Of a stretch of 64,000 nucleotides of DNA, positions 19,450-37,417 are shown one piece after another. Source of the DNA: Escherichia phage vB_EcoS_HdH2. A program made the translations under genes and the position numbers. The stretch's first letter is position 1. Every line of letters begins with the position of its first letter. Location: the sequence record NC_048748.1, one strand, 5' to 3'. The notes beneath the pieces were generated by a model. The model ran no database searches. It was not told the DNA's origin and was given only the letters and a program-made list of their open reading frames with translations.

Positions 19450-19866
19450 TTAATCTACTGCATGGATAAATCTTTTCCTAACTAGATACATAGTTATTGG
19501 GTAAATTGAGTACATAAGTATCGGGGAGAAAAGGGTGAAATATGCTGTAACTCCCCCAGCTAACATCAAAGGTATTAATGCTAGAGTAAGGGCCATAAGA
19601 ATCATGCCGAATGAAACAGCCAAAGCTATGGATATAGGATTCTCTAGTTCCATCCATAACCAACAATATTTCGTATCTCTATGGCAATTGCATTTACAAA
19701 CGCCGAATGAACCCATAATTATATACTCTAGTCCGTGAATAACCTTTATTAATAAGCTATTTCGGGTAGTTAATGCAAGGATAGTAAAGACTATCATTAA
19801 AACGAATACTACTAGACTTATTTTCCAGATACCTAGCAGCATCATAGTGAATAGTTCTGCAAACAT
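19450..19866 (-). CDS. integral membrane protein
   Basis: 138 aa, multiple hydrophobic helices. Confidence 0.45.
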   Translation of the reverse strand: MFAELFTMMLLGIWKISLVVFVLMIVFTILALTTRNSLLIKVIHGLEYIIMGSFGVCKCNCHRDTKYCWLWMELENPISIALAVSFGMILMALTLALIPLMLAGGVTAYFTLFSPILMYSIYPITMYLVRKRFIHAVD

Positions 19867-19943: not shown

Positions 19944-20357
19944 TTAAACTAGTTCGACATGACCGCCATCATAGGTACCACGTTTTATTTCATCGTGATA
20001 GTCTCCCGAAGCATTCCAATCAGCACCAAAACGAAGTTTAATGCCTAGTTCTTTACCTGCTTGTTCAAAAGCCTTTTTAACTACCCAAAATGCTTCTAAG
20101 TCATTCCAATCAATTTTGCCATTAATAAATGGAGCAAAATCAATAGCATCCCCAGTAATATGTTTGCTTTTACTAGGATCTTTTAGAAATGAAGTACCAT
20201 TAGCAATATTCTGGGCACTTTGTGCTACTGTACGAATACCCTGTACGATCGTGAAATCATATGGAGATAATTCTAAAGCTCTACGAGCTACTTTTTGTAA
20301 CTCTGGCTTAACGGTAGCTAATTGTTTTTCGCTATTTTTACCAAATTTAAAACTCAT
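19944..20357 (-). CDS. lys: Endolysin, L-alanyl-D-glutamate peptidase (M15-like)
   Basis: 137 aa; HITGDAIDF ... DGGHVEL zinc-ligand pattern; same size as T5 endolysin. Confidence 0.75.
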   Translation of the reverse strand: MSFKFGKNSEKQLATVKPELQKVARRALELSPYDFTIVQGIRTVAQSAQNIANGTSFLKDPSKSKHITGDAIDFAPFINGKIDWNDLEAFWVVKKAFEQAGKELGIKLRFGADWNASGDYHDEIKRGTYDGGHVELV

Positions 20358-21010
20358 ATTGATCTACCTAAAGATCTCTGTTGTGGGGAACAGAGCTTCG
20401 TTAAATACTCGTTAAATTTCTCAGAATCGGCTGTATCTACAGGATTATCTTTCCAAGCAATACCAATATATCCAGCATAGATATTGTTTAGATTGAAATA
20501 CGGACAAGTGTATATGTAATTAAAAGTAACGTTCTTAAACGCAGGTATATTTAACCCCATATATTTATTTACTTTTACACTTAAATCCGATGCGTAGTTA
20601 AAGCCGTCTAAGTGACGTCTATATAGCTCAGACGTCTTATTTACCGCTTTATCGGCCAAGTCAGCCCTATCTAATTGCGCATTGCTTTCCCATGCAATAA
20701 TGTTAGAATAATCATTAATGGCATCGGGTTTATACTTGACTACAAAAACAGCATCCGCACCCGTTTGGGAAAAAAGCACCATGCTCTTTTCTCTAGCTAC
20801 GTTAGGAAAATTACTTATCCTTTGAGTTTGAACATCCTGTAGAACCGCAGACGTGGAGAAAATCTTTAAGAACGACATCACCTCACTAGTATTACTAACA
20901 AATAAGAAAATAATGACAGCAACTAAGATAGTTAGCAGACGTTTAAGAAGCGATGCTGGATCTTTCGCTTCTTGGAGCAGTACCGTTAATAATTGTAAGA
21001 ACTTTTCCAA
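20354..21010 (-). CDS. hol: Holin (T5-type, single TMD)
   Basis: 218 aa, N-terminal transmembrane segment, directly upstream of and overlapping the endolysin. Confidence 0.6.
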   Translation of the reverse strand: MEKFLQLLTVLLQEAKDPASLLKRLLTILVAVIIFLFVSNTSEVMSFLKIFSTSAVLQDVQTQRISNFPNVAREKSMVLFSQTGADAVFVVKYKPDAINDYSNIIAWESNAQLDRADLADKAVNKTSELYRRHLDGFNYASDLSVKVNKYMGLNIPAFKNVTFNYIYTCPYFNLNNIYAGYIGIAWKDNPVDTADSEKFNEYLTKLCSPQQRSLGRSI

Positions 21011-21130
21011 TTGTAACCTCCTCTAACCAGTACCATTATACTAATTTTGGAGGAAAATTACAATGTGTTTTTAAAGATCACTTCTGGAGCATAAAATTTT
21101 GTCGTTGTCAAGAAGAATTTTAGATAAAAG

Positions 21131-21163
21131 AAAAGCCAGAGTCGTTAAACCCTGGCTTAAAAT
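21131..21163 (-). terminator. Rho-independent terminator (minus strand)
   Basis: gccagggtttaacgactctggc hairpin then ttttctttt. Confidence 0.55.
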
Positions 21164-21166
21164 TAC

Positions 21167-21766
21167 TTACTCTTCGTTATGCTCCTCGGATTGAGGTAAC
21201 TGGGCTTTATTATATTGCTCAGATCGATATTTTGCCAAGATTTCAATACGCTTATGGATTTCTTTGCTATCTAGATAGATATTTTTGTTGTCTTTTACCA
21301 TCTCGTCGATTTCGTCTATTGAGAAGAACGGATAGTAGACATCTAGCATCATATCTTCTACGAACTTGTTGTAAGATTCATAGGCCTTCTTGATTTCTTG
21401 ACCCTTCTCACAGAATCCGCCAGAGAACGTGTGTCCCATTAGCGTAGCATGTGGATGTACTACCCATCCATGACAGGATAGGAAAATTGTGCAGTAAGCA
21501 GAAGCACTAGGACCAATTAGATGCCCTATAACTGTTCCACGGCAATTAGCAATTAAGTTAGATAACTGTGCAGCGGTATCAACATAGCCACCAGGGCCAT
21601 TAATCATCAGATTAATTTCGTCATCCTCATTTGCCTGCATAAGTACCATTGATAAATCACGGTATTCATCCGGCGGACCAAGTTCTTCATCAAAGAAAAA
21701 GGTATACTCGTTAGATTGGCGAATGGAGTGAAACAGGTTAGTCTTTTCTTCTTTTTTATTAGTCAT
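21167..21766 (-). CDS. ClpP-like serine protease
   Basis: INGPGGYVDTA and GPSASAY resemble ClpP INSPGG / catalytic-Ser motifs. Confidence 0.55.
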   Translation of the reverse strand: MTNKKEEKTNLFHSIRQSNEYTFFFDEELGPPDEYRDLSMVLMQANEDDEINLMINGPGGYVDTAAQLSNLIANCRGTVIGHLIGPSASAYCTIFLSCHGWVVHPHATLMGHTFSGGFCEKGQEIKKAYESYNKFVEDMMLDVYYPFFSIDEIDEMVKDNKNIYLDSKEIHKRIEILAKYRSEQYNKAQLPQSEEHNEE

Positions 21767-21778
21767 AGCGATCCTTGA

Positions 21779-22531
21779 TTATCCAACTAGTGGTTCTAGC
21801 TCTAAGTCACAGAAGTTATACACTTCTAGTTTAAGGTTATTGATACCATCGAATTTATTAACTAATTCGTGAGTGATATATTTTGCAGGAATACCACTTT
21901 CAGATGGATGATCTGATTTAATAGTGAACTTCTGCTCAGCGGGCACTACATTTACTAGTAAAGAATCCATATCTAAATGGTTCGTTTCTCTGAGTAACTC
22001 TCCTTCATTGGGGAATCTCACATCTGTTATTACGGCGACATCTGGGTCGTCTTTAGCGATGGATTGCTCCAGAATTATGAGCCAAATGCGTTCATGCACC
22101 AGCTGCCTTCCTAGCTCTGTTCCTACGAGCTGTAACATTTTTCTCGGAGAAATAAATAAACTATAAAGTCCGTCTTCTTTATTCTCTGAGATAAGTTGTT
22201 GAGGATTAAGATATTTTTCCTCAAAAATAGGCCAAACGTACGAGAAGTCTTCAAACTTATCGATACCGTACTTAAACCACACATCTCTGGCTCGCTCCAG
22301 TTGAGATTGTGTGACCGTAAACCATTGGTCAATCTCTTTTCCCCTGCGCTCTCCTAGAAACTCTGGAGTTACACCGAGGATTACGGATGCAAGTTCATAA
22401 ACGGGCTTAGCAAAACTGTAACGACGGGATAAACACGTTGGATACGTGTTATTACACCAATCGATAATTAATTTTGCAACGGTATCTTTTCCCGAACCAG
22501 CTTCACCATGTAAACCGACTAATACTGACAT
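21779..22531 (-). CDS. deoxynucleoside monophosphate kinase
   Basis: P-loop GEAGSGKDT at the N-terminus, about 250 aa as for T4/T5 dNMP kinases. Confidence 0.65.
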   Translation of the reverse strand: MSVLVGLHGEAGSGKDTVAKLIIDWCNNTYPTCLSRRYSFAKPVYELASVILGVTPEFLGERRGKEIDQWFTVTQSQLERARDVWFKYGIDKFEDFSYVWPIFEEKYLNPQQLISENKEDGLYSLFISPRKMLQLVGTELGRQLVHERIWLIILEQSIAKDDPDVAVITDVRFPNEGELLRETNHLDMDSLLVNVVPAEQKFTIKSDHPSESGIPAKYITHELVNKFDGINNLKLEVYNFCDLELEPLVG

Positions 22532-22884
22532 TAATCTTTCCTATTGTTAATTGGTGGATAGTAAACTAAGCAACGTTTTTCTTGTAAATCTTGGCGATAG
22601 AAGCAAACCATACTTGTCAGTCGTGAAATGTAAGAGTAAACTGCTTCCTCACATTTTGCTTTTGCATTCCAATCTTTATATGGTACAACAACTACTACGC
22701 CATCTTCTCCATTTGTAGCTAGTTTCTTTTCAAACTTAAAGTCAAAGCTACAAGGTTGAAGTCCTTTAGGCCAGTCTACATGAGCTTGCTTTAACTCATG
22801 AGATGGCTCTGGTTTTATTTCTTCTGCACAGCCTGTGATTGTGATTGCGGCTGCGAGCAGTATTCCAAGTTTCCAGTTAAACAT
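22531..22884 (-). CDS. lipoprotein (possible o-spanin)
   Basis: Signal peptide with lipobox ITGC; overlaps upstream gene by 70 nt. Confidence 0.45.
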   Translation of the reverse strand: MFNWKLGILLAAAITITGCAEEIKPEPSHELKQAHVDWPKGLQPCSFDFKFEKKLATNGEDGVVVVVPYKDWNAKAKCEEAVYSYISRLTSMVCFYRQDLQEKRCLVYYPPINNRKD

Positions 22885-23264
22885 GCTAATCTTTCCTCGA
22901 ACTCTTTACTCTGCTTTTTAGCAATTAATGTTACCAATCCAGGCTTTGCAGCTATAATATCTTGGCGACTAAGAGCTTTGTCTAACTGCTTAATCTTTTT
23001 GTCTAGATCTGCTTGCGAAATATTATTCATTGTGAAATACTGATTCATTCTAGTCTCACGAAGTTCGCTTTCAGCTTTCACCTTATTGAGGGAAGTCTCT
23101 AGAGAAGAAATCTTTTTAGTAGCTACCGCAAGATCTCCTGCTAAAGTCTCCACTTTATCTACTAAGTGATAAGCACCGAACCCGATGCCTATCGCTAGAC
23201 CTGCTCCCAGGATATACCACTTACCTTGCCATATTCCTGAAAGAAGTTTTTGTATCAAATCCAT
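22815..23264 (-). CDS. type II membrane coiled-coil protein (possible i-spanin)
   Basis: N-terminal transmembrane segment then long coiled coil; overlaps lipoprotein gene. Confidence 0.4.
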   Translation of the reverse strand: MDLIQKLLSGIWQGKWYILGAGLAIGIGFGAYHLVDKVETLAGDLAVATKKISSLETSLNKVKAESELRETRMNQYFTMNNISQADLDKKIKQLDKALSRQDIIAAKPGLVTLIAKKQSKEFEERLACLTGNLEYCSQPQSQSQAVQKK

Positions 23265-23919
23265 GCGCTGCTAACCTATCTTTATCTGATACTTTAATCA
23301 TATCAGGCTCACCAGTTCCTAATACACCAAAGATATACTGTTCGAGAACTTGGTGTAAACGGTATAAGTTACTTTCAATTTCCTGCCACGGAATACCTGA
23401 CTGATGGAAACGAATGTTAGTCTGAATTACGAAGTTACGAACATCATCGTTATCGTTCTTTTTAATACCTTTCACATATGCAATCGGTACACGCAGTTCG
23501 GATAAGATACGTTCTGCTTTAGGTTTTGCTTCAGCGAGCAGATCACGCATTGTTTCACGAACATCTCCACGACTCTTATCCATTAAGTAAGAGCGAGCAT
23601 GCAATCCCATCTCTTCCATTTTATCGAACATAGTGTCGAGGTCGAACGTTTTGAAGCTAAATGCTGGATGCCAGCAGTACAGCTCGTGTAACCAGTAAAC
23701 TTCACCTGCAACAAATAGCGGGTTTACAAAATATTCGAAATCACCACGGAAAGATAGCGAACCATCACGAAATACCTGGCGACTATGCACGATGTTCTTT
23801 TCTGCATCATCAGTTACTTTAACCAGTAGCTCTTCAGTTTTACGCTCCCAAACACGATCTGCATCAAATAAACTGTTCTGCAAATCATATACATCGGCGA
23901 ATTTAGAAATGATCCTCAT
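23221..23919 (-). CDS. hypothetical protein
   Basis: 232 aa. Confidence 0.5.
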   Translation of the reverse strand: MRIISKFADVYDLQNSLFDADRVWERKTEELLVKVTDDAEKNIVHSRQVFRDGSLSFRGDFEYFVNPLFVAGEVYWLHELYCWHPAFSFKTFDLDTMFDKMEEMGLHARSYLMDKSRGDVRETMRDLLAEAKPKAERILSELRVPIAYVKGIKKNDNDDVRNFVIQTNIRFHQSGIPWQEIESNLYRLHQVLEQYIFGVLGTGEPDMIKVSDKDRLAAHGFDTKTSFRNMAR

Positions 23920-27355: not shown

Positions 27356-27540
27356 TAGATCTCCTGTTTGGTAGTTAGTAGTGGATTTGAACCACTGTAG
27401 TCGCTCCGTATGAAGGAGGTGCATAACCACTCTGCCAACTAACTATTATGTTTTACTAGACTAAGTAAGTATTCTTTATACTCTTTAGACCAATTAGCTT
27501 TTTTAAACTTTCCTGGACGCATAGTCTTAATTCCTAAATT

Positions 27541-27617
27541 TGGTACTCCGGGAGGGATTTAAACCCCCGATCTCTCGGTTATCAGCTGAGTGCTTTAGAT
27601 CGCTAAGCTACCGAAGC
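27541..27617 (-). tRNA. tRNA, anticodon GAT (Ile) by manual fold
   Basis: Encoded CCA; acceptor with 2 G-U; T arm GGGGG/TTTAAAT/CCCTC. Confidence 0.45.
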
Positions 27618-27632
27618 ATTAAAATATTTACA

Positions 27633-27938
27633 TCACACACTGTCTAAGTAAGAAGTATAATGGAATTTAGTTTCTCCAGTCTTATCTACTTCTACCTCAG
27701 TTCGTGGTACTTGACGCACTATACCATGAATCATCTTATAGCGAATGCCTTTAGCTGGTTCATGATCTTTTGGAAATACTTGTTTAACCGTTACTACTTT
27801 ATACTCTTCACGCGGGGTTAGCACAACTACTTGATCACCTTCTTTGATTTTCCAAGAAGATGGAAATTCATAGGTATATCTTTGGCCACTAGTTTGGAAT
27901 ACTACAGAAAGATAACGTTTCATTTGGTTTCCTCTCAT
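27633..27938 (-). CDS. hypothetical protein
   Basis: 101 aa. Confidence 0.45.
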   Translation of the reverse strand: MRGNQMKRYLSVVFQTSGQRYTYEFPSSWKIKEGDQVVVLTPREEYKVVTVKQVFPKDHEPAKGIRYKMIHGIVRQVPRTEVEVDKTGETKFHYTSYLDSV

Positions 27939-27996
27939 TAATTTATATAAATATTATAGCAATAAATAAGAGAGAAAGCAAATGAATTTTTAAATT

Positions 27997-28071
27997 TGGT
28001 GCTCCCACCAGGAATCGAACCCGGTTCCACGGTTTACAAGACCGTTGCATCGCCAGCAATGCTTTAAGAGC
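27997..28071 (-). tRNA. tRNA-Thr (anticodon TGT)
   Basis: GGTTCGATTCC T-loop, CCA encoded, loop CTTGTAA. Confidence 0.55.
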
Positions 28072-28463
28072 TATCGTTGTCTTGTTGAAACTCTATTTCT
28101 GGCCCTATGCGTAGGGGTCATAGAGTGACAGTTAGGGCAGAGAATCTTTAGATTTTCTGGAGAACAGTTAGTTGCATCTCCATCTATATGATCTACCTCA
28201 GTTAAAACTGCTCCGTCAATTGGATGTTTCCCATCCCAACCACATACTTCACAAGCAGTACCACGAGTATCCCACAGCCACTTCCTAACAAAAGGTTTTA
28301 ATTGTGCAGCTTTACCAGTATAACCAGGTTCTTCACCTGCCAACCACTTTAATACTTTTTGCTTTGTCTGGTACTCCTGCTGACAAGCAGGACCACAATA
28401 CTTACCTGCGGAGCCCCTACTTTTAGGTTTTGTGATTCCGCAATTTAAACAAGTAAACTCCAT
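28071..28463 (-). CDS. HNH endonuclease
   Basis: EVDHIDGDATNCSPENLKILCPNCH HNH core plus N-terminal Cys-rich region. Confidence 0.65.
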   Translation of the reverse strand: MEFTCLNCGITKPKSRGSAGKYCGPACQQEYQTKQKVLKWLAGEEPGYTGKAAQLKPFVRKWLWDTRGTACEVCGWDGKHPIDGAVLTEVDHIDGDATNCSPENLKILCPNCHSMTPTHRARNRVSTRQR

Positions 28464-28628
28464 GTTGCTTCCTATTTCAACGGGATTTCTTTTTCAATAA
28501 CGGGAGACTTATCAGTCATAACTGCCATAGCCAACTGCTGAAGAAACTCGAAAGTTAGCTTTAAGCGTTCTTCGCCTAATTCAACCTCAACGTATTTCTT
28601 TTGTTTGTCAACCTTTAATTTTAGGTTA

Positions 28629-28850
28629 TCAGCCATCTTCGGATTCTCGTTGCTCGGCTACTGCTAGCCAGTCTGGTAAAAGAAACTTAGTACGAAACTC
28701 TTCATAAGATTCTTCTGGATAAAAGCTAAAACCTCCTTTCTCATCATTCAAGATAACAGAGCCGTCAGTTTGTTCATATGCTCGATATGTTTCTCCAATA
28801 ATGATAACTCGCTTATCAGTACTTTTATTACGAAACTCAAAAACGTGCAT
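28629..28850 (-). CDS. hypothetical protein
   Basis: 73 aa. Confidence 0.4.
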   Translation of the reverse strand: MHVFEFRNKSTDKRVIIIGETYRAYEQTDGSVILNDEKGGFSFYPEESYEEFRTKFLLPDWLAVAEQRESEDG

Positions 28851-28867
28851 AGAGATTCCTTAAAGAT

Positions 28868-28943
28868 TGGTGCGGGATACGAGAGTCGAACTCGTGTCTA
28901 CTGGTTGGAAGCCAGTTATTCTAGCCACTGAACTAATCACGCA
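28868..28943 (-). tRNA. tRNA-Gly (anticodon TCC)
   Basis: TTCGACT T-loop, CCA encoded, anticodon loop CTTCCAA; one acceptor mismatch. Confidence 0.5.
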
Positions 28944-28948
28944 TAAAT

Positions 28949-29023
28949 TGGCAGGAAAGTAGGGATTCGAACCCTAACTAAGAGATTCAAAATCTCCAGT
29001 GCTAACCGTTACACTACTCTCCA
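28949..29023 (-). tRNA. tRNA-Gln-like (anticodon TTG); acceptor/T-stem register ambiguous
   Basis: TTCGAAT T-loop, anticodon loop TTTTGAA. Confidence 0.4.
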
Positions 29024-29029
29024 ATTGTT

Positions 29030-29105
29030 TGGCTGGGATGCCACGGATCGAACGTGGAACCTTCGGAGTCAGAGGCCGACGATCTGCCAATTGATCTACA
29101 TCCCA
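29030..29105 (-). tRNA. tRNA, probable anticodon CTG (Gln)
   Basis: CCACG/TTCGATC/CGTGG T arm, perfect acceptor TGGGATG/CATCCCA. Confidence 0.45.
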
Positions 29106-29118
29106 ATAATTCTTTACT

Positions 29119-29313
29119 CTACGGAAATAGAGTAACTGGCTCAGGGTCTTCAAGACGCTTACCTTCATGATCTACTCGAATGACTCCACATCCTTCGCAA
29201 ACCACAACTGCACCATAACCTTCTTTGACTTCGGCTTCTGTAATCAAACCAGAAAGATCACCAGTATCTCTGCCCCACATATCAATGGAGCATTGTTTGC
29301 AGAAATCAGCCAT
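29119..29313 (-). CDS. small Cys-rich protein (zinc ribbon)
   Basis: CKQC ... CEGC pairs. Confidence 0.35.
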   Translation of the reverse strand: MADFCKQCSIDMWGRDTGDLSGLITEAEVKEGYGAVVVCEGCGVIRVDHEGKRLEDPEPVTLFP

Positions 29314-29338
29314 ATTTTATTTCCTATTTAAGTTAACT

Positions 29339-29415
29339 TGGGGTGGCTAGTGGAATTCGAATCCACATAGGCCTGATTCACAATCAGGATCATTAACCAA
29401 TTATGATATAGCCAC
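29339..29415 (-). tRNA. tRNA-His (anticodon GTG)
   Basis: Anticodon arm CCTGA/TTGTGAA/TCAGG, extra 5' G typical of tRNA-His. Confidence 0.55.
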
Positions 29416-29782
29416 AATTGAAAACTCGCAGGGTTAGCGAAACCTTCCTCAATTAGCATGTTCTAGAATACTAATCAAGTTATCTCCTATTGCACGCAGC
29501 TCAAGACGAGTACGAATTTTCAATTGTGGTGGCTCTCAGAAACTCTTCTATTCTAGCCTCAGAAGCTTACCCCCGAACGCCTGTCGGGAAAGTCTTTCCA
29601 AGAGCATCAAATAGCACCGTTACACTTTGAGCCATTGATGTATCGAGGAATAGAAGGACTTGAACCTTCATGAGTTAGACCATTTAACTCAACCGCTTTT
29701 AAGGTATATTTCTAGGAGTGGATGTTCCTAGTAAACCTATTGGGCAGTCCCATCTACCAATTCCGGCATATTCCAAGAACTT

Positions 29783-29965
29783 TTATAAACCAGCAGAAGC
29801 CTCATTTAAAGCATCAACAATAGCCTGTTGTTGAGTCCATCCTCTACCAGTAGAATTAACGTGTGGAAGATATACTTCCCAATAACCGTCTTCTAGTAAA
29901 GTTATTTGTGCACTAAACTCTGTGCCATCAGTTAGTGTAACCTTCACAGTTTTCGTTAAAGACAT
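29783..29965 (-). CDS. hypothetical protein
   Basis: 60 aa. Confidence 0.35.
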   Translation of the reverse strand: MSLTKTVKVTLTDGTEFSAQITLLEDGYWEVYLPHVNSTGRGWTQQQAIVDALNEASAGL

Positions 29966-29980
29966 ATATTACCCTATAAG

Positions 29981-30070
29981 TTGGCAGAAGGTAATGGAGT
30001 CGAACCATCACCGTATCACTACAGCGGGCTAGTTTTCAAGACTAGTTGCGTACCACTACGCCCTACCTTC
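29981..30070 (-). tRNA. tRNA-Ser (anticodon TGA), type II
   Basis: 90 nt with long variable arm; anticodon arm CTAGT/CTTGAAA/ACTAG. Confidence 0.55.
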
Positions 30071-30077
30071 TATTTGT

Positions 30078-30168
30078 TTGGCGGAAGAGGAGAGATTTGA
30101 ACTCTCAAGCCGTTTTACCAGTCAGCCACTTTCCAAGCGGTTTTCGTCGCCAATTCGATTTGCTCTTC
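30078..30168 (-). tRNA. type II tRNA (Ser/Leu class; anticodon possibly GGA)
   Basis: 91 nt, TTCAAAT T-loop, perfect 7-bp acceptor. Confidence 0.45.
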
Positions 30169-30280
30169 CAATAATAAGATGATGCCTCTATCACACCAGG
30201 CAGTTACGCCCCACTGGGATTCGAACCCATTAAAACAGCTCAACCGAGATAGTAGGTTTAATTTACTCTGAACATCAAAT

Positions 30281-30357
30281 TTGGTGCGTGACAAGGGATT
30301 CGAACCCTCAAAACCCGACTTCTAAGGACGGTATGTATGCCCATTCCATCAATCACG
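30281..30357 (-). tRNA. tRNA (anticodon unresolved, possibly TAG)
   Basis: GAGGG/TTCGAAT/CCCTT T arm and acceptor GCGTGAT/GTCACGC. Confidence 0.4.
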
Positions 30358-30362
30358 CGTAT

Positions 30363-30441
30363 TTGGTGGAGAATAACGGAATCGAACCGTTCTGATGTCC
30401 TCGGTGCAAGCGAGGTGTCCACTCCATGCAGACCCATTCCC
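30363..30441 (-). tRNA. tRNA-Ala (anticodon TGC)
   Basis: Anticodon arm CCTCG/CTTGCAC/CGAGG, T-loop TTCGATT. Confidence 0.5.
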
Positions 30442-30700
30442 CAAATTCTTTAGTTTACTAAGGCTATTAGCTCGGCGTAACTACAGCACCTTCGCTTCGA
30501 GCGGAAGGAACCGCGTCATCTCGCAAACCCGATACACTATTCAGTTGCCATGAATCTAGTGGACTAATCTAGAACTTCTCCCAAATCGTAGGGATCGTGC
30601 TTTTTGGCAGCCAGTCCTAGGTCGAGCTAATACCTTAGTGAACTATGATGAGGATTTCTCCCCATCAATTTATATAAATATTATAACAAGAAATTAAGCA

Positions 30701-31060
30701 TTAAGCAAGTACATTTTTGCAGATTTCTTGTAGTTCCTTTACATCACGAACGTAAAGATAGTCTGAACTTCCAGAGTGCATACTTTGCATAAACACACCC
30801 TCATCTGGCGCAGTATCCTTCAAAGTAATTCCTAACCAGAACTCGGCAAAACTAGGTGTTATCTCACCTTGACTTGCCTTGAATACATCGGCTTCTGTGA
30901 TCTCCTGACCAGTAGAAAGTCCCATATACGGTACGTTCAGATCAATATCTTTGTAGAATTCAGCTAGGTCTTGTTCGAAGTCCCAACCTTTAGAGATAGC
31001 GAACTCTATTGTTACATGACCGAAATAGCCTTGAACCTTGCTTGATAATTGCATTTGCAA
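30701..31060 (-). CDS. hypothetical protein
   Basis: 119 aa. Confidence 0.45.
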   Translation of the reverse strand: MQMQLSSKVQGYFGHVTIEFAISKGWDFEQDLAEFYKDIDLNVPYMGLSTGQEITEADVFKASQGEITPSFAEFWLGITLKDTAPDEGVFMQSMHSGSSDYLYVRDVKELQEICKNVLA

Positions 31061-31079
31061 TTCCTTATTTTGAGTTAAT

Positions 31080-31152
31080 TGGTACTCGGTGATAGAATCG
31101 AACTATCGCAACCGCCGTGTAAAGACGGGGTTCTCCCATTAAACTAACCGAG
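31080..31152 (-). tRNA. tRNA-Val (anticodon TAC)
   Basis: Loop TTTACAC, T arm GATAG/TTCGATT/CTATC. Confidence 0.5.
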
Positions 31153-31286
31153 CAAAAGATTTGCTACTAAAAATGCTTCGAACAGAAATTCACAAAATCC
31201 CGCTAAAAACATACCTATTGTAAAATCGGCAGAAAATACATAGGAATCTTTTATTTTCTGCTTCATTAAGTAAAACCAGATAGTCA

Positions 31287-31604
31287 TTAAAATCTCTCCA
31301 TTCTAAAGCCAATGAAGTAAGGTGCATTACACGGAACATGCTTAAGATCTTTGAGAGTAATTTTACGTCCTAAGCGTCGTTCCATACAAGTGAAACATAG
31401 AACAATATCTTTGGGCTGCTCTTTTCTTATCTGATCCCAGACCCAATCTTCAACCATACACATTTCATGGTATTGTTCACAGTCTCGACAATAATGACAC
31501 TGATGTTCTGGTACTTTTTGATTTTTAATACACAGTTCGGTAAAGCGTTTTCCGGCTCTGCCAGACATTTCTGATATTGTTTCTAGAACTTTGTTAATAT
31601 TCAT
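31287..31604 (-). CDS. Cys-rich hypothetical protein
   Basis: 105 aa; CHYCRDC ... CFTC. Confidence 0.45.
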   Translation of the reverse strand: MNINKVLETISEMSGRAGKRFTELCIKNQKVPEHQCHYCRDCEQYHEMCMVEDWVWDQIRKEQPKDIVLCFTCMERRLGRKITLKDLKHVPCNAPYFIGFRMERF

Positions 31605-31621
31605 AACAAATTCCTTTAAAT

Positions 31622-31700
31622 TGGTAGATCGCCTGGGACTCGAACCCAGAACCTTCCGATTAAAAGTCGGATGCTGCTAAACCTATTGCGCTAGCGACCT
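31622..31700 (-). tRNA. tRNA-Lys (anticodon TTT)
   Basis: Anticodon arm TCCGA/CTTTTAA/TCGGA, T arm CTGGG/TTCGAGT/CCCAG. Confidence 0.55.
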
Positions 31701-31889
31701 ATTAGTAGCCATTATATACTTCTTTAATAGAATGGACTTTTAAGTAAGAATGATTAATCCCAAACTCCGCCATTACTTCTTTTTCATCTTTTCCATAATG
31801 TGCAAGTAAGGATCTTGAGGTATTATTACCTAAACGTTTGTCACTTACTACTAATCGAAATACTTTCATTTCGAAATCCTCTATTAAAA

Positions 31890-31967
31890 TGGAAGCGGGT
31901 GCAGGAATCGAACCTACCTCTTTCTAGCTTATGAGACTAGCGATCTCTACCAGAGATCTAACCCGCA
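31890..31967 (-). tRNA. tRNA with CAT anticodon (Met/fMet/Ile2)
   Basis: Anticodon loop CTCATAA; U-U at acceptor 1:72. Confidence 0.45.
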
Positions 31968-31973
31968 ATTGTT

Positions 31974-32049
31974 TGGTCAGTGCGGCAGGACTCGAACCTG
32001 CGACCCGAAGCATCCAAGGCTCCCACGCTACCAACTGCGCTACGCACTG
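31974..32049 (-). tRNA. tRNA-Pro (anticodon TGG)
   Basis: Perfect acceptor CAGTGCG/CGCACTG, anticodon arm GGAGC/CTTGGAT/GCTTC. Confidence 0.55.
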
Positions 32050-32258
32050 TTAATTTTTGTTAACTCACTTTATAAAATATATTATACAGATAATTAAGCA
32101 TAATAGCAAATGAATTTTTAATAAATTTACTTATTGTGTAGGCCACCTGGAGGCTACCAACCCCACGGCTGACAAAGAAGTTTGCGAGACTTCTCTTAAA
32201 AGCCAGAATAGACCCGCCGATCTATCGGAACCTACATAATAAGTAAACTTTATAGTGT

Positions 32259-32379
32259 CATTCTAGACAGGATTCGAACCTGTTATCCCTTGTGCGGACT
32301 TACGAGAACCCTTCTTTCACTCGAATCGAACGAGCTTCTGCCCTCGCCAAGTTGGTTTCCCCATCAACCACGCTAGAAT
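32259..32379 (-). ncRNA. tRNA-like element about 121 nt with two T-arm-like hairpins and a matched acceptor-like stem
   Basis: ATTCTAG/CTAGAAT ends, D-arm-like TGGT...ACCA, hairpins GCTCG-TTCGATT-CGAGT and ACAGG-TTCGAAT-CCTGT. Confidence 0.35.
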
Positions 32380-32501
32380 GTTTGGTTGTTTTCAGTGCAA
32401 GAGTCCGAGTCTTGGACACGACCGCTTCGCAAGTACATAGGCAGCTTATCATGAGTCAGCACTTCCGAATTGCTAGCTCCGTGTTCTGCACTGAAATTTT
32501 A

Positions 32502-32849
32502 TTAGTTTAACCGTAAAGTATTATCTACTTCAACATTAATTGTTCGGCATTCCTCTGGGATTGCTGGGGTGGCCTTGTATTCCCACCACTCAGCACCGTC
32601 ATACTCCCCACGTTCTAGCCAAGTTCCATCGGCAAACCATACATTACCATAAAGTAATTGTCCACCGTATCCAGAATCATATTCAAAGTCTAGGTTATTA
32701 AGAAAATCCTCAATATCTTCTTCTGTATAGCCTAAAGGTAGTACCCAAATTTTTTTATCCCCATAATACCCGAATTCTATTTTAATACACTTAACTTTAG
32801 AATTGGTATTTTTTAAGGCGAGTAACAGCTCTTCTTTAGCATTACGCAT
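32502..32849 (-). CDS. hypothetical protein
   Basis: 115 aa. Confidence 0.45.
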   Translation of the reverse strand: MRNAKEELLLALKNTNSKVKCIKIEFGYYGDKKIWVLPLGYTEEDIEDFLNNLDFEYDSGYGGQLLYGNVWFADGTWLERGEYDGAEWWEYKATPAIPEECRTINVEVDNTLRLN

Positions 32850-32874
32850 AGTATATTCTCATACTGAATTAATT

Positions 32875-32951
32875 TGGCGCGACCGATGGGATTTGAACCC
32901 ACATTCCCTCCCGTGACAGGGGAGTACCATTACCAAGCCAGCCCCGGTCGC
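32875..32951 (-). tRNA. tRNA-Asp (anticodon GTC)
   Basis: Perfect acceptor GCGACCG/CGGTCGC, anticodon arm CTCCC/CTGTCAC/GGGAG. Confidence 0.55.
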
Positions 32952-32960
32952 ATAATTTAT

Positions 32961-33146
32961 TTACTCAGCTTTGAGTTTTTCAATAGCTGCATTAAGTTCT
33001 TTAAGAAACTCTTTTCGTACATTAAGACGATTGAGACTTACTAGTATATCATGTTTAAGTTCTTCGATGTATTTCTTCTCAACTTCAATATTGTTGATAG
33101 TGCTATCACGATGAACTTCTAGCTGCGCAATCACATTCTTGGACAT
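32961..33146 (-). CDS. hypothetical coiled-coil protein
   Basis: 61 aa. Confidence 0.35.
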   Translation of the reverse strand: MSKNVIAQLEVHRDSTINNIEVEKKYIEELKHDILVSLNRLNVRKEFLKELNAAIEKLKAE

Positions 33147-33247
33147 GCTTGTTTCCTCAGTTATTAATGAAAATGGTATCTGTGGCTGAATTCGATGTCA
33201 GCAATGATAGCTGGTTGGCTACCGGTTTACTTAACTCTACACAGAAT

Positions 33248-33330
33248 TTGGCGGGCCGTGTAGGATTCGAACCTACGTTGTCTTTCGACATGGATTAACA
33301 GTCCACCGCCAAACCGCTTGGCTAACGACC
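33248..33330 (-). tRNA. tRNA, anticodon GTT (Asn) by manual fold, unusually long variable region
   Basis: 83 nt; D arm GCCA...TGGC, loop CTGTTAA. Confidence 0.4.
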
Positions 33331-33483
33331 CTAAATTTATATTGCTGACTAGGATTTTCACCTAGACGGAGTTAGCACCGTAGCGTGTAGCGGCATACCT
33401 CTCCAAACCGTGCCTCATCTTTCAATTACGGAGACAGTGTTCCTACGCGTGCCTGAATTGATTTAACAATTCTTTCAGCAAAT

Positions 33484-33559
33484 TGGACGACCGCATGAGA
33501 TTTGAACTCACATAAAAAGGATTTGCAATCCTTCGCCTAAGCCATTCAGCCAACGGTCG
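33484..33559 (-). tRNA. tRNA-Cys (anticodon GCA)
   Basis: Anticodon arm AAGGA/TTGCAAA/TCCTT, T-loop TTCAAAT. Confidence 0.5.
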
Positions 33560-33628
33560 GTTTATCTTGTTCTGTTATGTTGCTTCTCCAGTTCAATTTA
33601 TGTAATTATTATACAGAACTTTCGGAAA

Positions 33629-33901
33629 CTAAGCAACTACATTTTTTAAGAATTTGATGCCTTTCTTTTTCTTCTTATATTTCCACGTTAATGGATTCTG
33701 TCGATTATGAACGCTTGAGATCTTCGTCTCGTCAAAGTTCTTCAATATCATGTAATCACAAGATAATTGTTCTAGTGGAATGTGATCACCGTCAAAAGCA
33801 TATACATAAGGCTGTTGACTAGCACGATAATGATAGACTTTATTAATTCTACGTTTCAGCGACTTATCCGCGCAGTAAATAAAGAAGTTTTCAGGATGCA
33901 T
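33629..33901 (-). CDS. hypothetical protein
   Basis: 90 aa. Confidence 0.4.
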   Translation of the reverse strand: MHPENFFIYCADKSLKRRINKVYHYRASQQPYVYAFDGDHIPLEQLSCDYMILKNFDETKISSVHNRQNPLTWKYKKKKKGIKFLKNVVA

Positions 33902-33918
33902 CAGCAGCTCCTTTAATT

Positions 33919-33993
33919 TGGTGCACCCTGTTCGTATCGAACGAACCTCTCAAGCTCTTCAGGCAAGCGCTAATCCATCTCAGCTAAAGGTGC
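33919..33993 (-). tRNA. tRNA (anticodon unresolved)
   Basis: T arm GTTCG/TTCGATA/CGAAC, CCA encoded, 7-bp acceptor with G-U. Confidence 0.4.
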
Positions 33994-33999
33994 AAATTT

Positions 34000-34076
34000 T
34001 GGCAAACCTACTAGGACTCGAACCTAGACCGTACGGTTTTGGAGACCGACATGCTGTCCAGTAACACTCTAGGAAT
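34000..34076 (-). tRNA. tRNA-like, possible anticodon CCA (Trp); acceptor pairing poor
   Basis: T arm CTAGG/TTCGAGT/CCTAG, loop CTCCAAA. Confidence 0.3.
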
Positions 34077-34083
34077 GCAGAAA

Positions 34084-34161
34084 TTGGCGTCCTGTGCGGG
34101 GATCGAACCCGCAAATCCTACCTTGAAAGGGTAGTGACTTTACCAGTTTGTCTAACAGGAC
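34084..34161 (-). tRNA. tRNA-Glu (anticodon TTC)
   Basis: Perfect acceptor, anticodon arm CTACC/CTTTCAA/GGTAG. Confidence 0.55.
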
Positions 34162-34168
34162 TTAAATT

Positions 34169-34259
34169 TGGTGTTGGATGATGGAGTCGAACCACCCGAG
34201 ACCCTTCCGAGTCGGCAGATTTACAGTCTGCTTCGCTACCTCTACGATACTAATCCAAC
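34169..34259 (-). tRNA. tRNA-Tyr (anticodon GTA), type II
   Basis: 91 nt, anticodon arm GCAGA/CTGTAAA/TCTGC, long variable arm. Confidence 0.55.
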
Positions 34260-34387
34260 ATATTTAAAAGTATTCAAATACTAGTTTAAACACTTTTAAA
34301 TATGTTTCCGAATTAGATAACTATTATACCAAGTTTTAAGGCACTGAGCAAGTCAAATTTTAAAGAACTTGCTCAGTGCTGTATTAG

Positions 34388-34663
34388 TTAGTCGAACTTA
34401 GGAGTGACAGTTAAGGAGAACGGAAGTTCGAAAACTTCTTCGCCCTCATTACTAACGGTAACTACACGACCTTTAAGTTCAGACATTAAAATATCAATAT
34501 CAGCTTTTGCATCTGGAGCCATGCCAGCTTCAATACATTTAGCTTTAACTTCCGGTAAAAGCTCTACGTTATAGAGATAGAGCCACTCAATCTCACCTTC
34601 CCAGTCTTCCCAGGATTTGCAGATTGCACTTTCAATACCAGTTGCTACAACACGATTTTGCAT
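34388..34663 (-). CDS. hypothetical protein
   Basis: 91 aa. Confidence 0.4.
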   Translation of the reverse strand: MQNRVVATGIESAICKSWEDWEGEIEWLYLYNVELLPEVKAKCIEAGMAPDAKADIDILMSELKGRVVTVSNEGEEVFELPFSLTVTPKFD

Positions 34664-34753
34664 TCGTTAACTCCTTCATCAATTTATACAACTATTATAT
34701 CAGAAATTTAAAGCAAAAGGCAAGTACATTTTTAAAAATTCTGTTTGGAGGAG

Positions 34754-34960
34754 CTAAACTCCAGATTCTTCAGCTAAGTCTAGACTAATAAGAGTTATAG
34801 CCATAATTGCTGCACCGTGTTCTTTTTCTCCGGTGTTTTTAGCAGAGTCTATAATATCCTTAATCTGTTCGTAATAACTTTTTACTTCTTGTTCAATGCC
34901 TGCCTCGGCTATCATGCCTTTAGCCATGAATCGTTGCATGGTAATTTCAGGATTAGCCAT
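34754..34960 (-). CDS. hypothetical protein
   Basis: 68 aa. Confidence 0.35.
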   Translation of the reverse strand: MANPEITMQRFMAKGMIAEAGIEQEVKSYYEQIKDIIDSAKNTGEKEHGAAIMAITLISLDLAEESGV

Positions 34961-35134
34961 GTTGTTTCTCCAGTTTCATTTTTAATAGTTTACAGAGGAA
35001 ATCAACGTCTTCATCTGTGCCTAAGTCTCTATCCTCAAGGGTCGCCTTGAAGTTTTTCGTCAATTCCATGAGGATGACTTCCCTAGAACGACGTGTTAGC
35101 GGAGGTGGATGTCTATACATCTTATTTCCTTAAT

Positions 35135-35211
35135 TTGGTAGGGGTGGTGGGATTCGAACCCACAAAACCTGAATTTTAAGTCCAGTACCTATGCCAATTC
35201 GATTACACCCC
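35135..35211 (-). tRNA. tRNA (type I length; apparent anticodon TAA, assignment uncertain)
   Basis: T arm GTGGG/TTCGAAT/CCCAC, acceptor GGGGGTG/CACCCCT. Confidence 0.4.
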
Positions 35212-35428
35212 CGTGTAATTTAGTCAATTACTTTTGAAGCTTCAAGGTAGTCGATATAGTGTACGTTTTCTACCGTAATCATATAATCTGCCACTTTATC
35301 CATAGCTTGGGCTTCAGAGGTAGCTCTGGCTAACCTATATCCTTTTTTATATTCATCAGGGTATTCTCTATCTTGAATAAACACAACATAAACTATGTAT
35401 AATTCCACTTGTAATCCCCTAATTAAGT

Positions 35429-35506
35429 TGGTGGCTCCCCGAGGATTCGAACCTACGTACCTTCCGGTTATGAGCCGGGTGCTCATACCATATGAGCTTG
35501 AGAACC
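35429..35506 (-). tRNA. tRNA-like with CAT anticodon; T stem has a bulge
   Basis: Acceptor GGTTCTC/GGGAGCC pairs with G-U; loop CTCATAA. Confidence 0.35.
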
Positions 35507-35512
35507 AGAATT

Positions 35513-35601
35513 TGGCGGAAGAAGTGGGAATCGAACCCACAAGGCTATATTTCAAACCGACAGATTAGCAATCTGCTGCAATACCGTTATGCTATTCTTC
35601 C
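35513..35601 (-). tRNA. tRNA-Ser (anticodon GCT), type II
   Basis: 89 nt, perfect acceptor GGAAGAA/TTCTTCC, loop TTGCTAA. Confidence 0.5.
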
Positions 35602-35621
35602 GAATTTATAAATATATTATA

Positions 35622-36191
35622 TTAGAAATTTAACTTCATAGCAAGAAAATTTTTCAAGTTTTCGGTAGACATCTCATCCACATCTATAGGAGAAACAAAC
35701 CCATTTAATTGTCTAGCAAACTTTTCGCCAGCAGGATCATTATCCCCAACAGCTACCAATTTAAAAGGTAGTAATTTCAATTGCTTTAACAACGCTTTTC
35801 CGGGGGAAGAACCCAACATTGCTAGGGCAGGATAACCAGCGTTATGTAACGCAACTGCCTTAAATACAGATTCAGCAATCAATACTACTTTTTCATCTCC
35901 ATTGAGAGTTTCTAGTCCCCATACACACTGTGTAGTAGAATAAGTAAAATATTTAGCCTCAAAGGGACACTTACCATGACCTTTTGGAGCAGAAGGATTA
36001 TAAGTCTGATAGCCTCTCAACATCCCAGAGAAGTCATACAATGGGACTGTTAGCCAGCCTTCTGGGCTTAACCAGCAATGATATTTATCTGTATCAAACC
36101 CTCTAGATAAGAGATGTTCTGTTAGTTCATCAACAGTCATATTAGATTCCTCTCTCAAATTTATAAATATATTATACAGAGAATTTAGCAT
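35622..36191 (-). CDS. hypothetical protein, possible Toprim-like fold
   Basis: LIAESVFKAVAL ... VAVGDNDPAGEKFA resembles E...DxD Toprim signature; weak. Confidence 0.4.
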   Translation of the reverse strand: MLNSLYNIFINLREESNMTVDELTEHLLSRGFDTDKYHCWLSPEGWLTVPLYDFSGMLRGYQTYNPSAPKGHGKCPFEAKYFTYSTTQCVWGLETLNGDEKVVLIAESVFKAVALHNAGYPALAMLGSSPGKALLKQLKLLPFKLVAVGDNDPAGEKFARQLNGFVSPIDVDEMSTENLKNFLAMKLNF

Positions 36192-36315
36192 TCAAGCAAT
36201 TGAATTTTTTAACTTTTTAGAGGAAAATCATAGGATGCTTAAGGGTAGCAGATAAGTGGTGAGTACCGAAATTTGTGACCCCACTAAAAATCTGGGGGCA
36301 ATTTTTAAAGACCCC

Positions 36316-36344
36316 TTGACATTTTCGCCGGGGTAGTGTAAAGT
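36316..36344 (+). promoter_or_regulatory. sigma70-type promoter (TTGACA-17-TAAAGT, TG-extended)
   Basis: Consensus -35; precedes the plus-strand three-gene cassette. Confidence 0.5.
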
Positions 36345-36406
36345 ATATGTTATGGATGAGTGATCAAAGAGACACACATTTTCTATATACTAGGAGGTGT
36401 CAAAAA

Positions 36407-37396: not shown

Positions 37397-37417
37397 TATT
37401 AAGGGGAGGAGCCCATT

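What the first reader, a model, noticed from the sequence alone, without database searches (positions are those of the whole stretch)
22531..23264. Overlapping type II membrane protein and lipoprotein (spanin-like) separated from the holin-endolysin pair
The gene at 22815-23264 encodes an N-terminal transmembrane segment plus coiled coil, and overlaps a downstream lipoprotein gene (lipobox ITGC) by 70 nt. That architecture is typical of i-spanin/o-spanin pairs. Here the pair is 1.8 kb from the holin/endolysin (19944-21010), with dNMP kinase and a ClpP-like protease in between. The lipoprotein is longer and more Cys-rich than typical o-spanins, so the assignment is tentative.
Basis: inference. 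Interest (0 to 1): 0.4.

Follow-up and report, generated by a model that had tools for sequence, protein, structure and literature searches.

The report
T5-type two-component spanin gene pair
These two overlapping genes are the already catalogued inner-membrane and outer-membrane spanin subunits of a T5-like phage, homologues of the tested phage T4 proteins that break the host outer membrane at lysis, so the finding is correct but ordinary.

Summary
On the minus strand, 22815-23264 encodes a 149-aa protein with one N-terminal transmembrane segment and a helical heptad-repeat domain. 22531-22884 encodes a 117-aa lipoprotein precursor (lipobox ITGC, Cys19, Ala at +2). The genes overlap by 70 nt.

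The window is a T5-like phage (Tequintavirus, 98.6% identical to Citrobacter phage Cit2 over this stretch). The pair corresponds to T5.045/T5.044, annotated "Rz-like spanin" in the T5 reference genome and i-spanin/o-spanin in many related records. Kongari et al. 2018 list a "T5 family" of spanins and state that the T5 genes overlap by 70 bp.

Both proteins match PHROG 739 and 812. The T4 spanins PseT.3/PseT.2, which complement a lambda Rz/Rz1 defect, match the same families. The two Cys essential in T4 PseT.2 are conserved here (C94, C105).

Long, Cys-rich o-spanins are normal for this family. So is the 1.5-1.8 kb separation from holin-endolysin, which is conserved in T5, Klebsiella phage Sealy and Pectobacterium phage My1.

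I found no direct experiment on T5 spanins. The only unexplored detail is a set of cysteine pairs seen only in the T5-like (Demerecviridae) members examined. Verdict: already known, low interest.

The parts
22815..23264 (-). i-spanin gene (149 aa), orthologue of T5.045 and homologue of T4 PseT.3. Type II inner-membrane protein.
   Evidence: ORF. PHROG 739, E 1.4e-37. 88% identical to T5.045. 28% identical to T4 PseT.3, E 5e-6.
23160..23216 (-). N-terminal transmembrane segment of the i-spanin (residues 17-35).
   Evidence: Best 19-aa Kyte-Doolittle window, score 1.55.
23028..23159 (-). Periplasmic helix alpha1 with heptad repeat (residues 36-79).
   Evidence: AlphaFold2 helix at 30-79, pLDDT 81-90 over residues 41-70. 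9 of 12 a/d positions hydrophobic, reached by 52 of 5000 shuffles.
22857..22883 (-). C-terminal C-x7-C motif of the i-spanin (Cys128, Cys136), encoded inside the overlap. Found in the T5-like members compared and absent from the T4-like i-spanins.
   Evidence: Alignment A1. Cys positions across 39 loci. The motif is kept even where the two genes are separated (L030).
22531..22884 (-). o-spanin gene (117-aa precursor, 98-aa mature lipoprotein), orthologue of T5.044 and homologue of T4 PseT.2.
   Evidence: ORF. PHROG 812, E 3.5e-30. 93% identical to T5.044. 29% identical to T4 PseT.2, E 1e-7.
22828..22884 (-). Lipoprotein signal peptide with lipobox ITGC (residues 1-19). Residue +2 is Ala, so sorting to the outer membrane is expected.
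   Evidence: G18 and C19 are invariant in alignment A2.
22570..22605 (-). Conserved C-terminal motif C94-x-Y-R-x-x-L-x-E-x-x-C105, equivalent to the essential Cys87/Cys98 of T4 PseT.2.
   Evidence: Invariant columns of A2. Essentiality in T4 is from Kongari 2018.
22815..22884 (-). 70-nt region read in two frames: the i-spanin C-terminal tail and the o-spanin signal peptide.
   Evidence: The same 70-nt overlap occurs in the 18 T5-like loci the script scored directly, and the 5 GTG-start loci checked by hand show the same reading-frame junction. Diversity is lower here. Kongari 2018 states that the T5 spanins overlap by 70 bp.
22894..22898 (-). Shine-Dalgarno-like GAGGA, 9 nt upstream of the o-spanin ATG, inside the i-spanin gene.
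   Evidence: Read directly from the sequence.
20354..21010 (-). Holin of the T4 T-holin family. A functional partner, in the next transcription unit.
   Evidence: PF11031, E 2.4e-112. PHROG 860.
19944..20357 (-). Endolysin (M15 peptidase family; annotated L-alanyl-D-glutamate peptidase in phage Sealy). A functional partner.
   Evidence: PHROG 465, E 1.1e-53, and PF13539. Product name from the Sealy record.
21133..21158 (-). Terminator-like hairpin after the Clp-like protease gene. It would close the transcription unit that holds the spanin genes.
   Evidence: It lies in the same place as the terminator annotated in T5.
21035..21063 (-). Promoter-like site upstream of the holin gene.
   Evidence: A promoter is annotated at the equivalent place in T5.

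Best explanation
The two genes encode the two-component spanin of a T5-like phage.

The 149-aa protein would sit in the inner membrane, held by its N-terminal transmembrane helix, with a helical, partly coiled-coil domain extending into the periplasm. The 117-aa precursor would be lipidated at Cys19, cleaved by signal peptidase II, and sorted to the outer membrane, because residue +2 is Ala rather than Asp. Its periplasmic domain is a small beta/alpha domain.

The C-terminal regions of the two proteins would bind each other and form a bridge across the periplasm, stabilised by disulfide bonds. Once the T-type holin has released the M15 endolysin and the cell wall is degraded, the complexes would be free to change shape and fuse or rupture the outer membrane. 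That completes lysis.

Shown here: gene structure, membrane-targeting signals, homology to the T4 spanins, conservation and synteny. Inferred from the lambda and T4 work: complex formation, the role of the disulfides, and the membrane-fusion step.
For: - Exact ORFs, transmembrane segment, lipobox and 70-nt overlap.
- PHROG 739 (E 1.4e-37) and 812 (E 3.5e-30), both labelled 'Rz-like spanin'. T4 PseT.3 and PseT.2 fall in the same two families (E 1.3e-37 and 5e-42).
- BLASTP to T4 PseT.3 gives E 5e-6 and to PseT.2 gives E 1e-7.
- The T4 pair complements lambda Rz-am/Rz1-am, and PseT.2 Cys87 and Cys98 are essential (PMC6139136). These two Cys are invariant in the alignment, as C94 and C105 here.
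- The T5 reference genome annotates T5.045/T5.044 as spanins, with notes pointing to T4 PseT.3/PseT.2. Many related records say i-spanin/o-spanin.
- Kongari 2018 lists T5 i-spanin and o-spanin families and the 70-bp overlap.
- Both ORFs show third-codon-position diversity patterns, and the o-spanin ORF is intact in 39 of 39 viral contigs.
- Predicted secondary structure is helix-linker-helix for the i-spanin and a beta/alpha/beta core for the o-spanin. This agrees with the published description of the T4 family.
- The order i-spanin, o-spanin, dNMP kinase, Clp-like protease, holin, endolysin is conserved in T5, Klebsiella phage Sealy and Pectobacterium phage My1.
Against: - I found no direct experiment on the T5-type proteins. 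Function rests on 25-30% identity to the tested T4 proteins.
- No Pfam or NCBIfam model covers either protein above its cut-off, and no solved structure exists.
- The structure models are single-sequence and of low confidence overall (mean pLDDT 60 and 63).
- The T5-type proteins carry extra cysteines that T4 lacks, two in the i-spanin and two in the o-spanin. Their disulfide chemistry may therefore differ from T4's.
Confidence: 0.9

Rival explanations
1. The pair descends from spanins but is dispensable or has another main role in T5-like phages. Outer-membrane disruption would then be done by something else, which would explain why the genes sit in a unit with nucleotide-metabolism genes rather than next to the holin.
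For: The genes share an apparent transcription unit with dNMP kinase and a Clp-like protease, and are separated from holin-endolysin by a terminator-like and a promoter-like site. No T5 experiment was found.
Against: Both ORFs are kept intact with purifying-selection patterns in every relative examined. The Cys residues essential in T4 are invariant. In T4 the functional spanin genes are likewise not located near the holin and endolysin genes, so placement says little about function.
Confidence: 0.06
2. The lipoprotein is a receptor-blocking or superinfection-exclusion lipoprotein, like T5 Llp or the Cor proteins. The membrane protein would be an unrelated accessory.
For: T5-like phages are known to encode a receptor-blocking lipoprotein, Llp (mentioned in PMC4342426). 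The protein here is larger and more Cys-rich than lambda Rz1.
Against: It matches the T4 PseT.2 family at E 3.5e-30 over its full length, including the essential Cys pair. It is always paired with, and usually overlaps, a PseT.3-type gene.
Confidence: 0.02
3. The 149-aa type II membrane protein is an antiholin or lysis-inhibition factor, like T4 RI, acting on the T-type holin rather than as a spanin subunit.
For: The holin is of the T4 T family (PF11031). In T4 that holin is regulated through its periplasmic domain by a membrane-tethered protein (established knowledge).
Against: The protein matches the PseT.3 family (PHROG 739, E 1.4e-37) over residues 13-131 and shares the conserved KPGL motif. 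No antiholin family was hit.
Confidence: 0.01

Closest known systems
Phage T5 spanins T5.045 (i-spanin) and T5.044 (o-spanin); 'T5 family' in SpaninDB (Kongari et al. 2018, PMC6139136)
   Same: 88% and 93% amino-acid identity. Same 70-nt overlap, same lipobox ITGC, same cysteine positions, and the same downstream neighbours: dNMP kinase, Clp-like protease, holin, endolysin.
   Different: The first 15 or so cytoplasmic residues of the i-spanin differ (149 aa against 147 aa). T5 has the HNH homing endonuclease gene hegF immediately upstream of the i-spanin gene and this window does not. Here the upstream 232-aa ORF overlaps the i-spanin start by 44 nt.
Phage T4 PseT.3 / PseT.2 spanins (experimentally validated)
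   Same: Same PHROG families, 739 and 812. Same topology. The KPGL motif in the i-spanin is conserved. In the o-spanin, the H-x-x-W-P motif and the C-x-Y-R-x-x-L-x-E-x-x-C motif containing T4's essential Cys87/Cys98 are conserved. In both phages the spanin genes are not next to the holin.
   Different: Only 25-30% identity. The T4 genes overlap by 4 nt ('separated' class), against 70 nt here. The T4 i-spanin has no periplasmic Cys, while this one has two in a C-terminal extension. This o-spanin has two extra Cys (C45, C78).
Lambda Rz / Rz1
   Same: Same functional class and topology: a type II inner-membrane protein with a helical periplasmic domain, plus an outer-membrane lipoprotein encoded in another frame of partly shared DNA.
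   Different: No detectable sequence match at E 0.01 or better. Rz1 is fully embedded in Rz, is only 40 aa when mature, is proline-rich and is unstructured. The lipoprotein here is 98 aa when mature, has a predicted beta/alpha fold and no proline-rich stretch. The database label 'Rz-like' describes function, not family.

Membership tests
Two-component spanin (functional class) | i-spanin: small protein with a single N-terminal transmembrane domain and a periplasmic C-terminal domain (type II topology) | tested here: met
   Only one hydrophobic segment, residues 17-35 (Kyte-Doolittle 1.55). The rest is hydrophilic and helical.
Two-component spanin (functional class) | o-spanin: signal peptidase II lipobox with Cys, and no inner-membrane retention residue (Asp) at +2 | tested here: met
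   ITGC with Cys19 and Ala at +2. G18 and C19 are invariant among relatives. Tested by motif only; no dedicated SPII predictor was available.
Two-component spanin (functional class) | The two genes are adjacent: embedded, overlapped or separated | tested here: met
   70-nt overlap, the 'overlapped' class.
Two-component spanin (functional class) | Periplasmic cysteine(s) available for intermolecular disulfide bonds | tested here: met
   Two in the i-spanin and four in the mature o-spanin. Whether they form disulfides was not testable.
Two-component spanin (functional class) | The subunits bind through their C-termini, span the periplasm, and are needed for outer-membrane disruption | not testable with these tools
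   Needs genetics or biochemistry. No T5 experiment was found in the literature searched.
T4 PseT.3/PseT.2 sequence superfamily (PHROG 739 / 812) | Significant full-length profile match to both families | tested here: met
   E 1.4e-37 and 3.5e-30. The T4 proteins hit the same families.
T4 PseT.3/PseT.2 sequence superfamily (PHROG 739 / 812) | Two conserved C-terminal Cys in the o-spanin (T4 Cys87 and Cys98, both essential) | tested here: met
   C94 and C105 are invariant columns of alignment A2.
T4 family in the strict sense (SpaninDB T4 families) | i-spanin without periplasmic Cys; genes of the 'separated' class (4-nt overlap) | tested here: not met
   The i-spanin has Cys128 and Cys136, and the overlap is 70 nt. 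It therefore belongs to the sister 'T5 family', not the T4 family proper.
T5 spanin family (SpaninDB, Kongari 2018) | Close sequence identity to T5.045/T5.044, with the 70-bp overlapped architecture | tested here: met
   88% and 93% identity. 70-nt overlap as published.
Lambda Rz/Rz1 family | Sequence similarity to Rz/Rz1; o-spanin embedded in the i-spanin gene; proline-rich, unstructured o-spanin | tested here: not met
   No hit to other 'Rz-like' PHROGs at E 0.01 or better. The genes overlap rather than one being embedded. The o-spanin has predicted strands and a helix.

The most novel reading that the evidence does not exclude
The T5-type spanin may use a different disulfide arrangement from both tested systems (lambda and T4).

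In the T5-like (Demerecviridae) members compared, the i-spanin carries a conserved C-terminal C-x7-C motif, encoded inside the gene overlap. The o-spanin carries an extra conserved Cys pair (C45, C78) on top of the T4-type essential pair. This could mean a covalent link between the i-spanin and the o-spanin, or an extra intramolecular staple. Neither has been described for a spanin.

The motif persists when a homing-endonuclease gene splits the overlap (L030). That suggests it is selected for itself and is not a by-product of dual coding.
Probability: 0.2. Interest if true: 0.3.

Novelty: already known. Interest (0 to 1): 0.07.

Why it matters
It matters little beyond correct annotation. The pair completes the lysis gene set of this T5-like phage: a T-type holin, an M15 endolysin and a two-component spanin.

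About half of the listed GenBank records for close relatives still call one or both genes "hypothetical protein", so the result is useful for annotation transfer.

The family is a textbook case of overlapped spanin genes, and of homing endonucleases converting an overlapped layout into a separated one. Both points are already published (PMC6139136).

Tried and rejected
- **Pfam and NCBIfam scans.** Only sub-threshold, coiled-coil-type hits such as FtsL, MctB and CNOT1, all far below their curated cut-offs. I rejected them as compositional.
- **PDB profile searches.** Nothing for the o-spanin. For the i-spanin, only E 0.01-0.15 hits to the coiled coils of influenza HA2 and coronavirus S2. I treated these as heptad-repeat composition, not homology.
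- **Single-sequence AlphaFold2 models.** Both came out at mean pLDDT 60-63. I used them for secondary structure only. I ran no fold search because the confidence is too low. I did not build deep alignments with the expensive protein searches, because the identification was already settled.
- **Literature.** A full-text search for T5.044, T5.045, T5p044 and T5p045 found no paper. Summer et al. 2007 (J Mol Biol 373:1098) is not held in the library. The T1-spanin paper PMC10954549 does not mention T5.
- **Alternative functions considered and rejected.** Llp/Cor-type exclusion lipoprotein, RI-type antiholin, and chance ORF overlap. See the rival explanations.

Full report
**Observation**

- ORF 22815-23264 encodes 149 aa. 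Its only strongly hydrophobic stretch is residues 17-35, YILGAGLAIGIGFGAYHLV (Kyte-Doolittle 1.55), and it has Cys at 128 and 136.
- ORF 22531-22884 encodes 117 aa, beginning MFNWKLGILLAAAITITGC. That is a lipoprotein signal peptide with lipobox ITGC, Cys19 and Ala at +2. Further Cys lie at 45, 78, 94 and 105.
- The ORFs share 70 nt (22815-22884) in different frames.
- A GAGGA Shine-Dalgarno-like sequence sits 9 nt upstream of the lipoprotein ATG.

| Gene | Coordinates | Evidence |
|---|---|---|
| Holin | 20354-21010 | PF11031 T-holin, E 2.4e-112 |
| M15 peptidase endolysin | 19944-20357 | PHROG 465, E 1.1e-53 |
| Clp-like protease | 21167-21766 | PF00574; PHROG 1827 |
| dNMP kinase | 21779-22531 | PF21448; PHROG 139 |

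**What the window is**

A 1-kb query across the pair matches 445 phage records, 437 of them over at least 80% of its length. Nearly all are Salmonella or Escherichia T5-like phages. The best match is Citrobacter phage vB_CfrD-Cit2 at 98.6% identity. The window is therefore part of a Tequintavirus genome (family Demerecviridae).

In the T5 reference genome (NC_005859) the orthologues are T5.045 and T5.044. Both are annotated "Rz-like spanin", with notes pointing to T4 PseT.3/PseT.2. Identity to the window proteins is 88% and 93%. Many other records annotate the pair as i-spanin/o-spanin or "Rz-like spanin (x2)". About half of the listed records still say "hypothetical protein".

**Homology to tested spanins**

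- The 149-aa protein matches PHROG 739 (E 1.4e-37) and the 117-aa protein matches PHROG 812 (E 3.5e-30). Both families are labelled "Rz-like spanin".
- T4 PseT.3 and PseT.2 fall in the same two families (E 1.3e-37 and 5e-42). So do the pairs from Proteus phage PM2 and Pectobacterium phage My1.
- Kongari et al. 2018 (PMC6139136) showed that T4 pseT.3/pseT.2 complement a lambda Rz-am/Rz1-am lysis defect. They also showed that PseT.2 Cys87 and Cys98 are both essential.
- In my alignment of six o-spanins, those two Cys are invariant, as C94 and C105 here. Also invariant are G18, C19, H35, W38, P39, Y96, R97, L100 and E102.
- In the i-spanin alignment, K107, P108 and L110 are invariant and Gly109 is present in five of the six sequences (the K-P-G-L motif), together with L94.

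**The literature already describes this pair**

Kongari et al. 2018 list a "T5" i-spanin family and a "T5" o-spanin family of 10 members each, including T5, EPS7, SPC35, DT57C and My1. They state that "the T5 spanins overlap by 70 bp". [quoted passage not shown] The same paper reports that the maximum number of periplasmic Cys in any o-spanin is 4. This one has exactly 4. The length (98 aa mature) is also normal for the T4/T5 group: T4 PseT.2 is 83 aa mature, against 40 aa for lambda Rz1.

**Comparative check**

I examined 39 viral contigs encoding relatives of the o-spanin. The o-spanin ORF is intact in all of them. An upstream PseT.3-type ORF was identified in all but one (L041).

| Group | Loci | Spacing of the two genes |
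|---|---|---|
| T5-like, scored by script | 18 | 70-nt overlap |
| T5-like with GTG start, checked by hand | 5 | same reading-frame junction as the 70-nt group |
| T5-like, split | L030, L031, L033 | 666-nt gap holding a 232-aa ORF |
| Klebsiella T5-like | 2 | 88-nt overlap |
| My1 | 1 | 34-nt overlap |
| T4-like with both genes identified | 9 | 4-nt overlap |

- The five GTG-start loci use GTG instead of ATG for the o-spanin. That change is synonymous (GCA to GCG, Ala) in the i-spanin frame.
- Among 24 distinct T5-like sequences, nucleotide diversity by codon position is 0.042/0.013/0.157 in the i-spanin-only part and 0.053/0.040/0.182 in the o-spanin-only part. This is the pattern expected for two real protein-coding genes. 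Mean diversity drops to 0.045 in the overlap.

**Structure-level features**

- The single-sequence AlphaFold2 model of the i-spanin (mean pLDDT 63) has a long helix at 30-79, with pLDDT 81-90 over residues 41-70. A short break and a second helix at 84-98 follow.
- Residues 36-79 have hydrophobic residues at 9 of 12 heptad a/d positions, which 52 of 5000 shuffles reach.
- The o-spanin model (mean pLDDT 60, rising to 71-83 over residues 61-110) has strands at 51-55 and 61-69, a helix at 72-85, and strands at 91-97 and 102-109.
- Both agree with the published secondary-structure description of the T4 family: two helices joined by a short linker in the i-spanin, and a beta-alpha-beta organisation in the o-spanin.
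- No solved structure of a relative exists, and neither Pfam nor NCBIfam has a model for these proteins.

**Gene context**

A terminator-like hairpin (21158-21133) follows the Clp-like protease gene. A promoter-like site (21063-21035) precedes the holin gene. Another promoter-like site (24013-23985) precedes the 232-aa ORF upstream of the i-spanin. All three coincide with promoters and terminators annotated in T5.

The spanin genes therefore probably belong to the unit [232-aa ORF, i-spanin, o-spanin, dNMP kinase, Clp-like protease], and holin-endolysin to the next unit. This is inferred from consensus matches and the T5 annotation. The same gene order is found in T5, Klebsiella phage Sealy and Pectobacterium phage My1, so it is the ancestral layout among these T5-like (Demerecviridae) phages and not a peculiarity of this window. 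In T4 the spanin genes are likewise not located near the holin and endolysin genes.

**Mechanism**

This is inferred from the lambda and T4 work summarised in PMC6139136.

1. The i-spanin is anchored in the inner membrane and the lipidated o-spanin in the outer membrane.
2. Their C-terminal regions bind and form a disulfide-stabilised complex across the periplasm.
3. After holin triggering and endolysin action remove the cell wall, the complexes fuse the two membranes. This destroys the outer membrane.

None of these steps has been tested for the T5-type proteins in any paper I could find.

**What differs from the tested systems**

The T5-like members compared (T5, Sealy, My1) share a C-terminal i-spanin extension with a C-x7-C motif (Cys128 and Cys136 here). 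They also share two extra o-spanin Cys (C45, C78). The T4-like proteins lack all four. The C-x7-C motif is encoded in the overlap but is retained (LACLSGSLEYC) in L030, where an inserted gene has split the overlap. So the motif appears to be selected for itself. Whether this changes the disulfide arrangement is unknown, and it is the only open point.

**Verdict**

The feature is already known as the T5.045/T5.044-type two-component spanin. Interest is low.

Noticed in passing
window 23221-23264 (junction of the 232-aa ORF 23221-23919 and the i-spanin gene): T5 has the HNH homing endonuclease gene hegF (T5.046) between T5.047 and the i-spanin gene. This window lacks it, and the T5.047 homologue overlaps the i-spanin start by 44 nt. 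hegF sits directly upstream of the i-spanin gene in 7 of 29 T5-like viral contigs. All 7 have the T5-type i-spanin N-terminus (147 or 141 aa) rather than the 149-aa form seen here.
   Followed up: yes
L030, L031, L033 (positions 2315-3013 of each locus): In three T5-like contigs a 232-aa ORF is inserted between the spanin genes, leaving a 666-nt gap. [quoted passage not shown] The insertion rewrites the last residues of the i-spanin and the first residues of the o-spanin signal peptide, but it keeps the C-x7-C motif and the lipobox.
   Followed up: partly
window 22882-22884; loci L012, L014, L015, L018, L019: Five related contigs use GTG instead of ATG as the o-spanin start codon. The change is synonymous (Ala GCA to GCG) in the overlapping i-spanin frame.
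   Followed up: yes
window 19450-19866 (-): A 138-aa protein of unknown function lies directly downstream of the endolysin gene. It matches PHROG 5944, has no Pfam or NCBIfam hit, and its T5 orthologue T5.039 is annotated with four transmembrane domains. It is conserved in T5 and Sealy. Its position next to the lysis genes raises the possibility of a lysis-related role.
   Followed up: no
window 20354-21010 (-): The holin belongs to the T4 T-holin family (PF11031, E 2.4e-112). This T5-like phage therefore shares both its holin and its spanins with T4-like phages, but it uses an M15 peptidase endolysin rather than a T4-type lysozyme.
   Followed up: partly
window 22346-22350 (-), inside the dNMP kinase gene: The sequence A-GCGC lies at the position equivalent to the 'major DNA single-chain interruption' (nick site consensus Pu-pGCGC) annotated in T5 at 22336-22337. 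The window may therefore carry the same nick site.
   Followed up: no
window 27369-39219 (-): A cluster of 24 tRNA genes, all on the minus strand, as in the T5 tRNA region.
   Followed up: no
i-spanin residues about 30-90 (window 22995-23177): The i-spanin profile gives weak PDB hits (E 0.01-0.15) almost exclusively to the coiled-coil cores of influenza HA2 and coronavirus S2 HR1. This is probably heptad-repeat composition, though it echoes the published analogy between spanins and class I viral fusion proteins.
   Followed up: no
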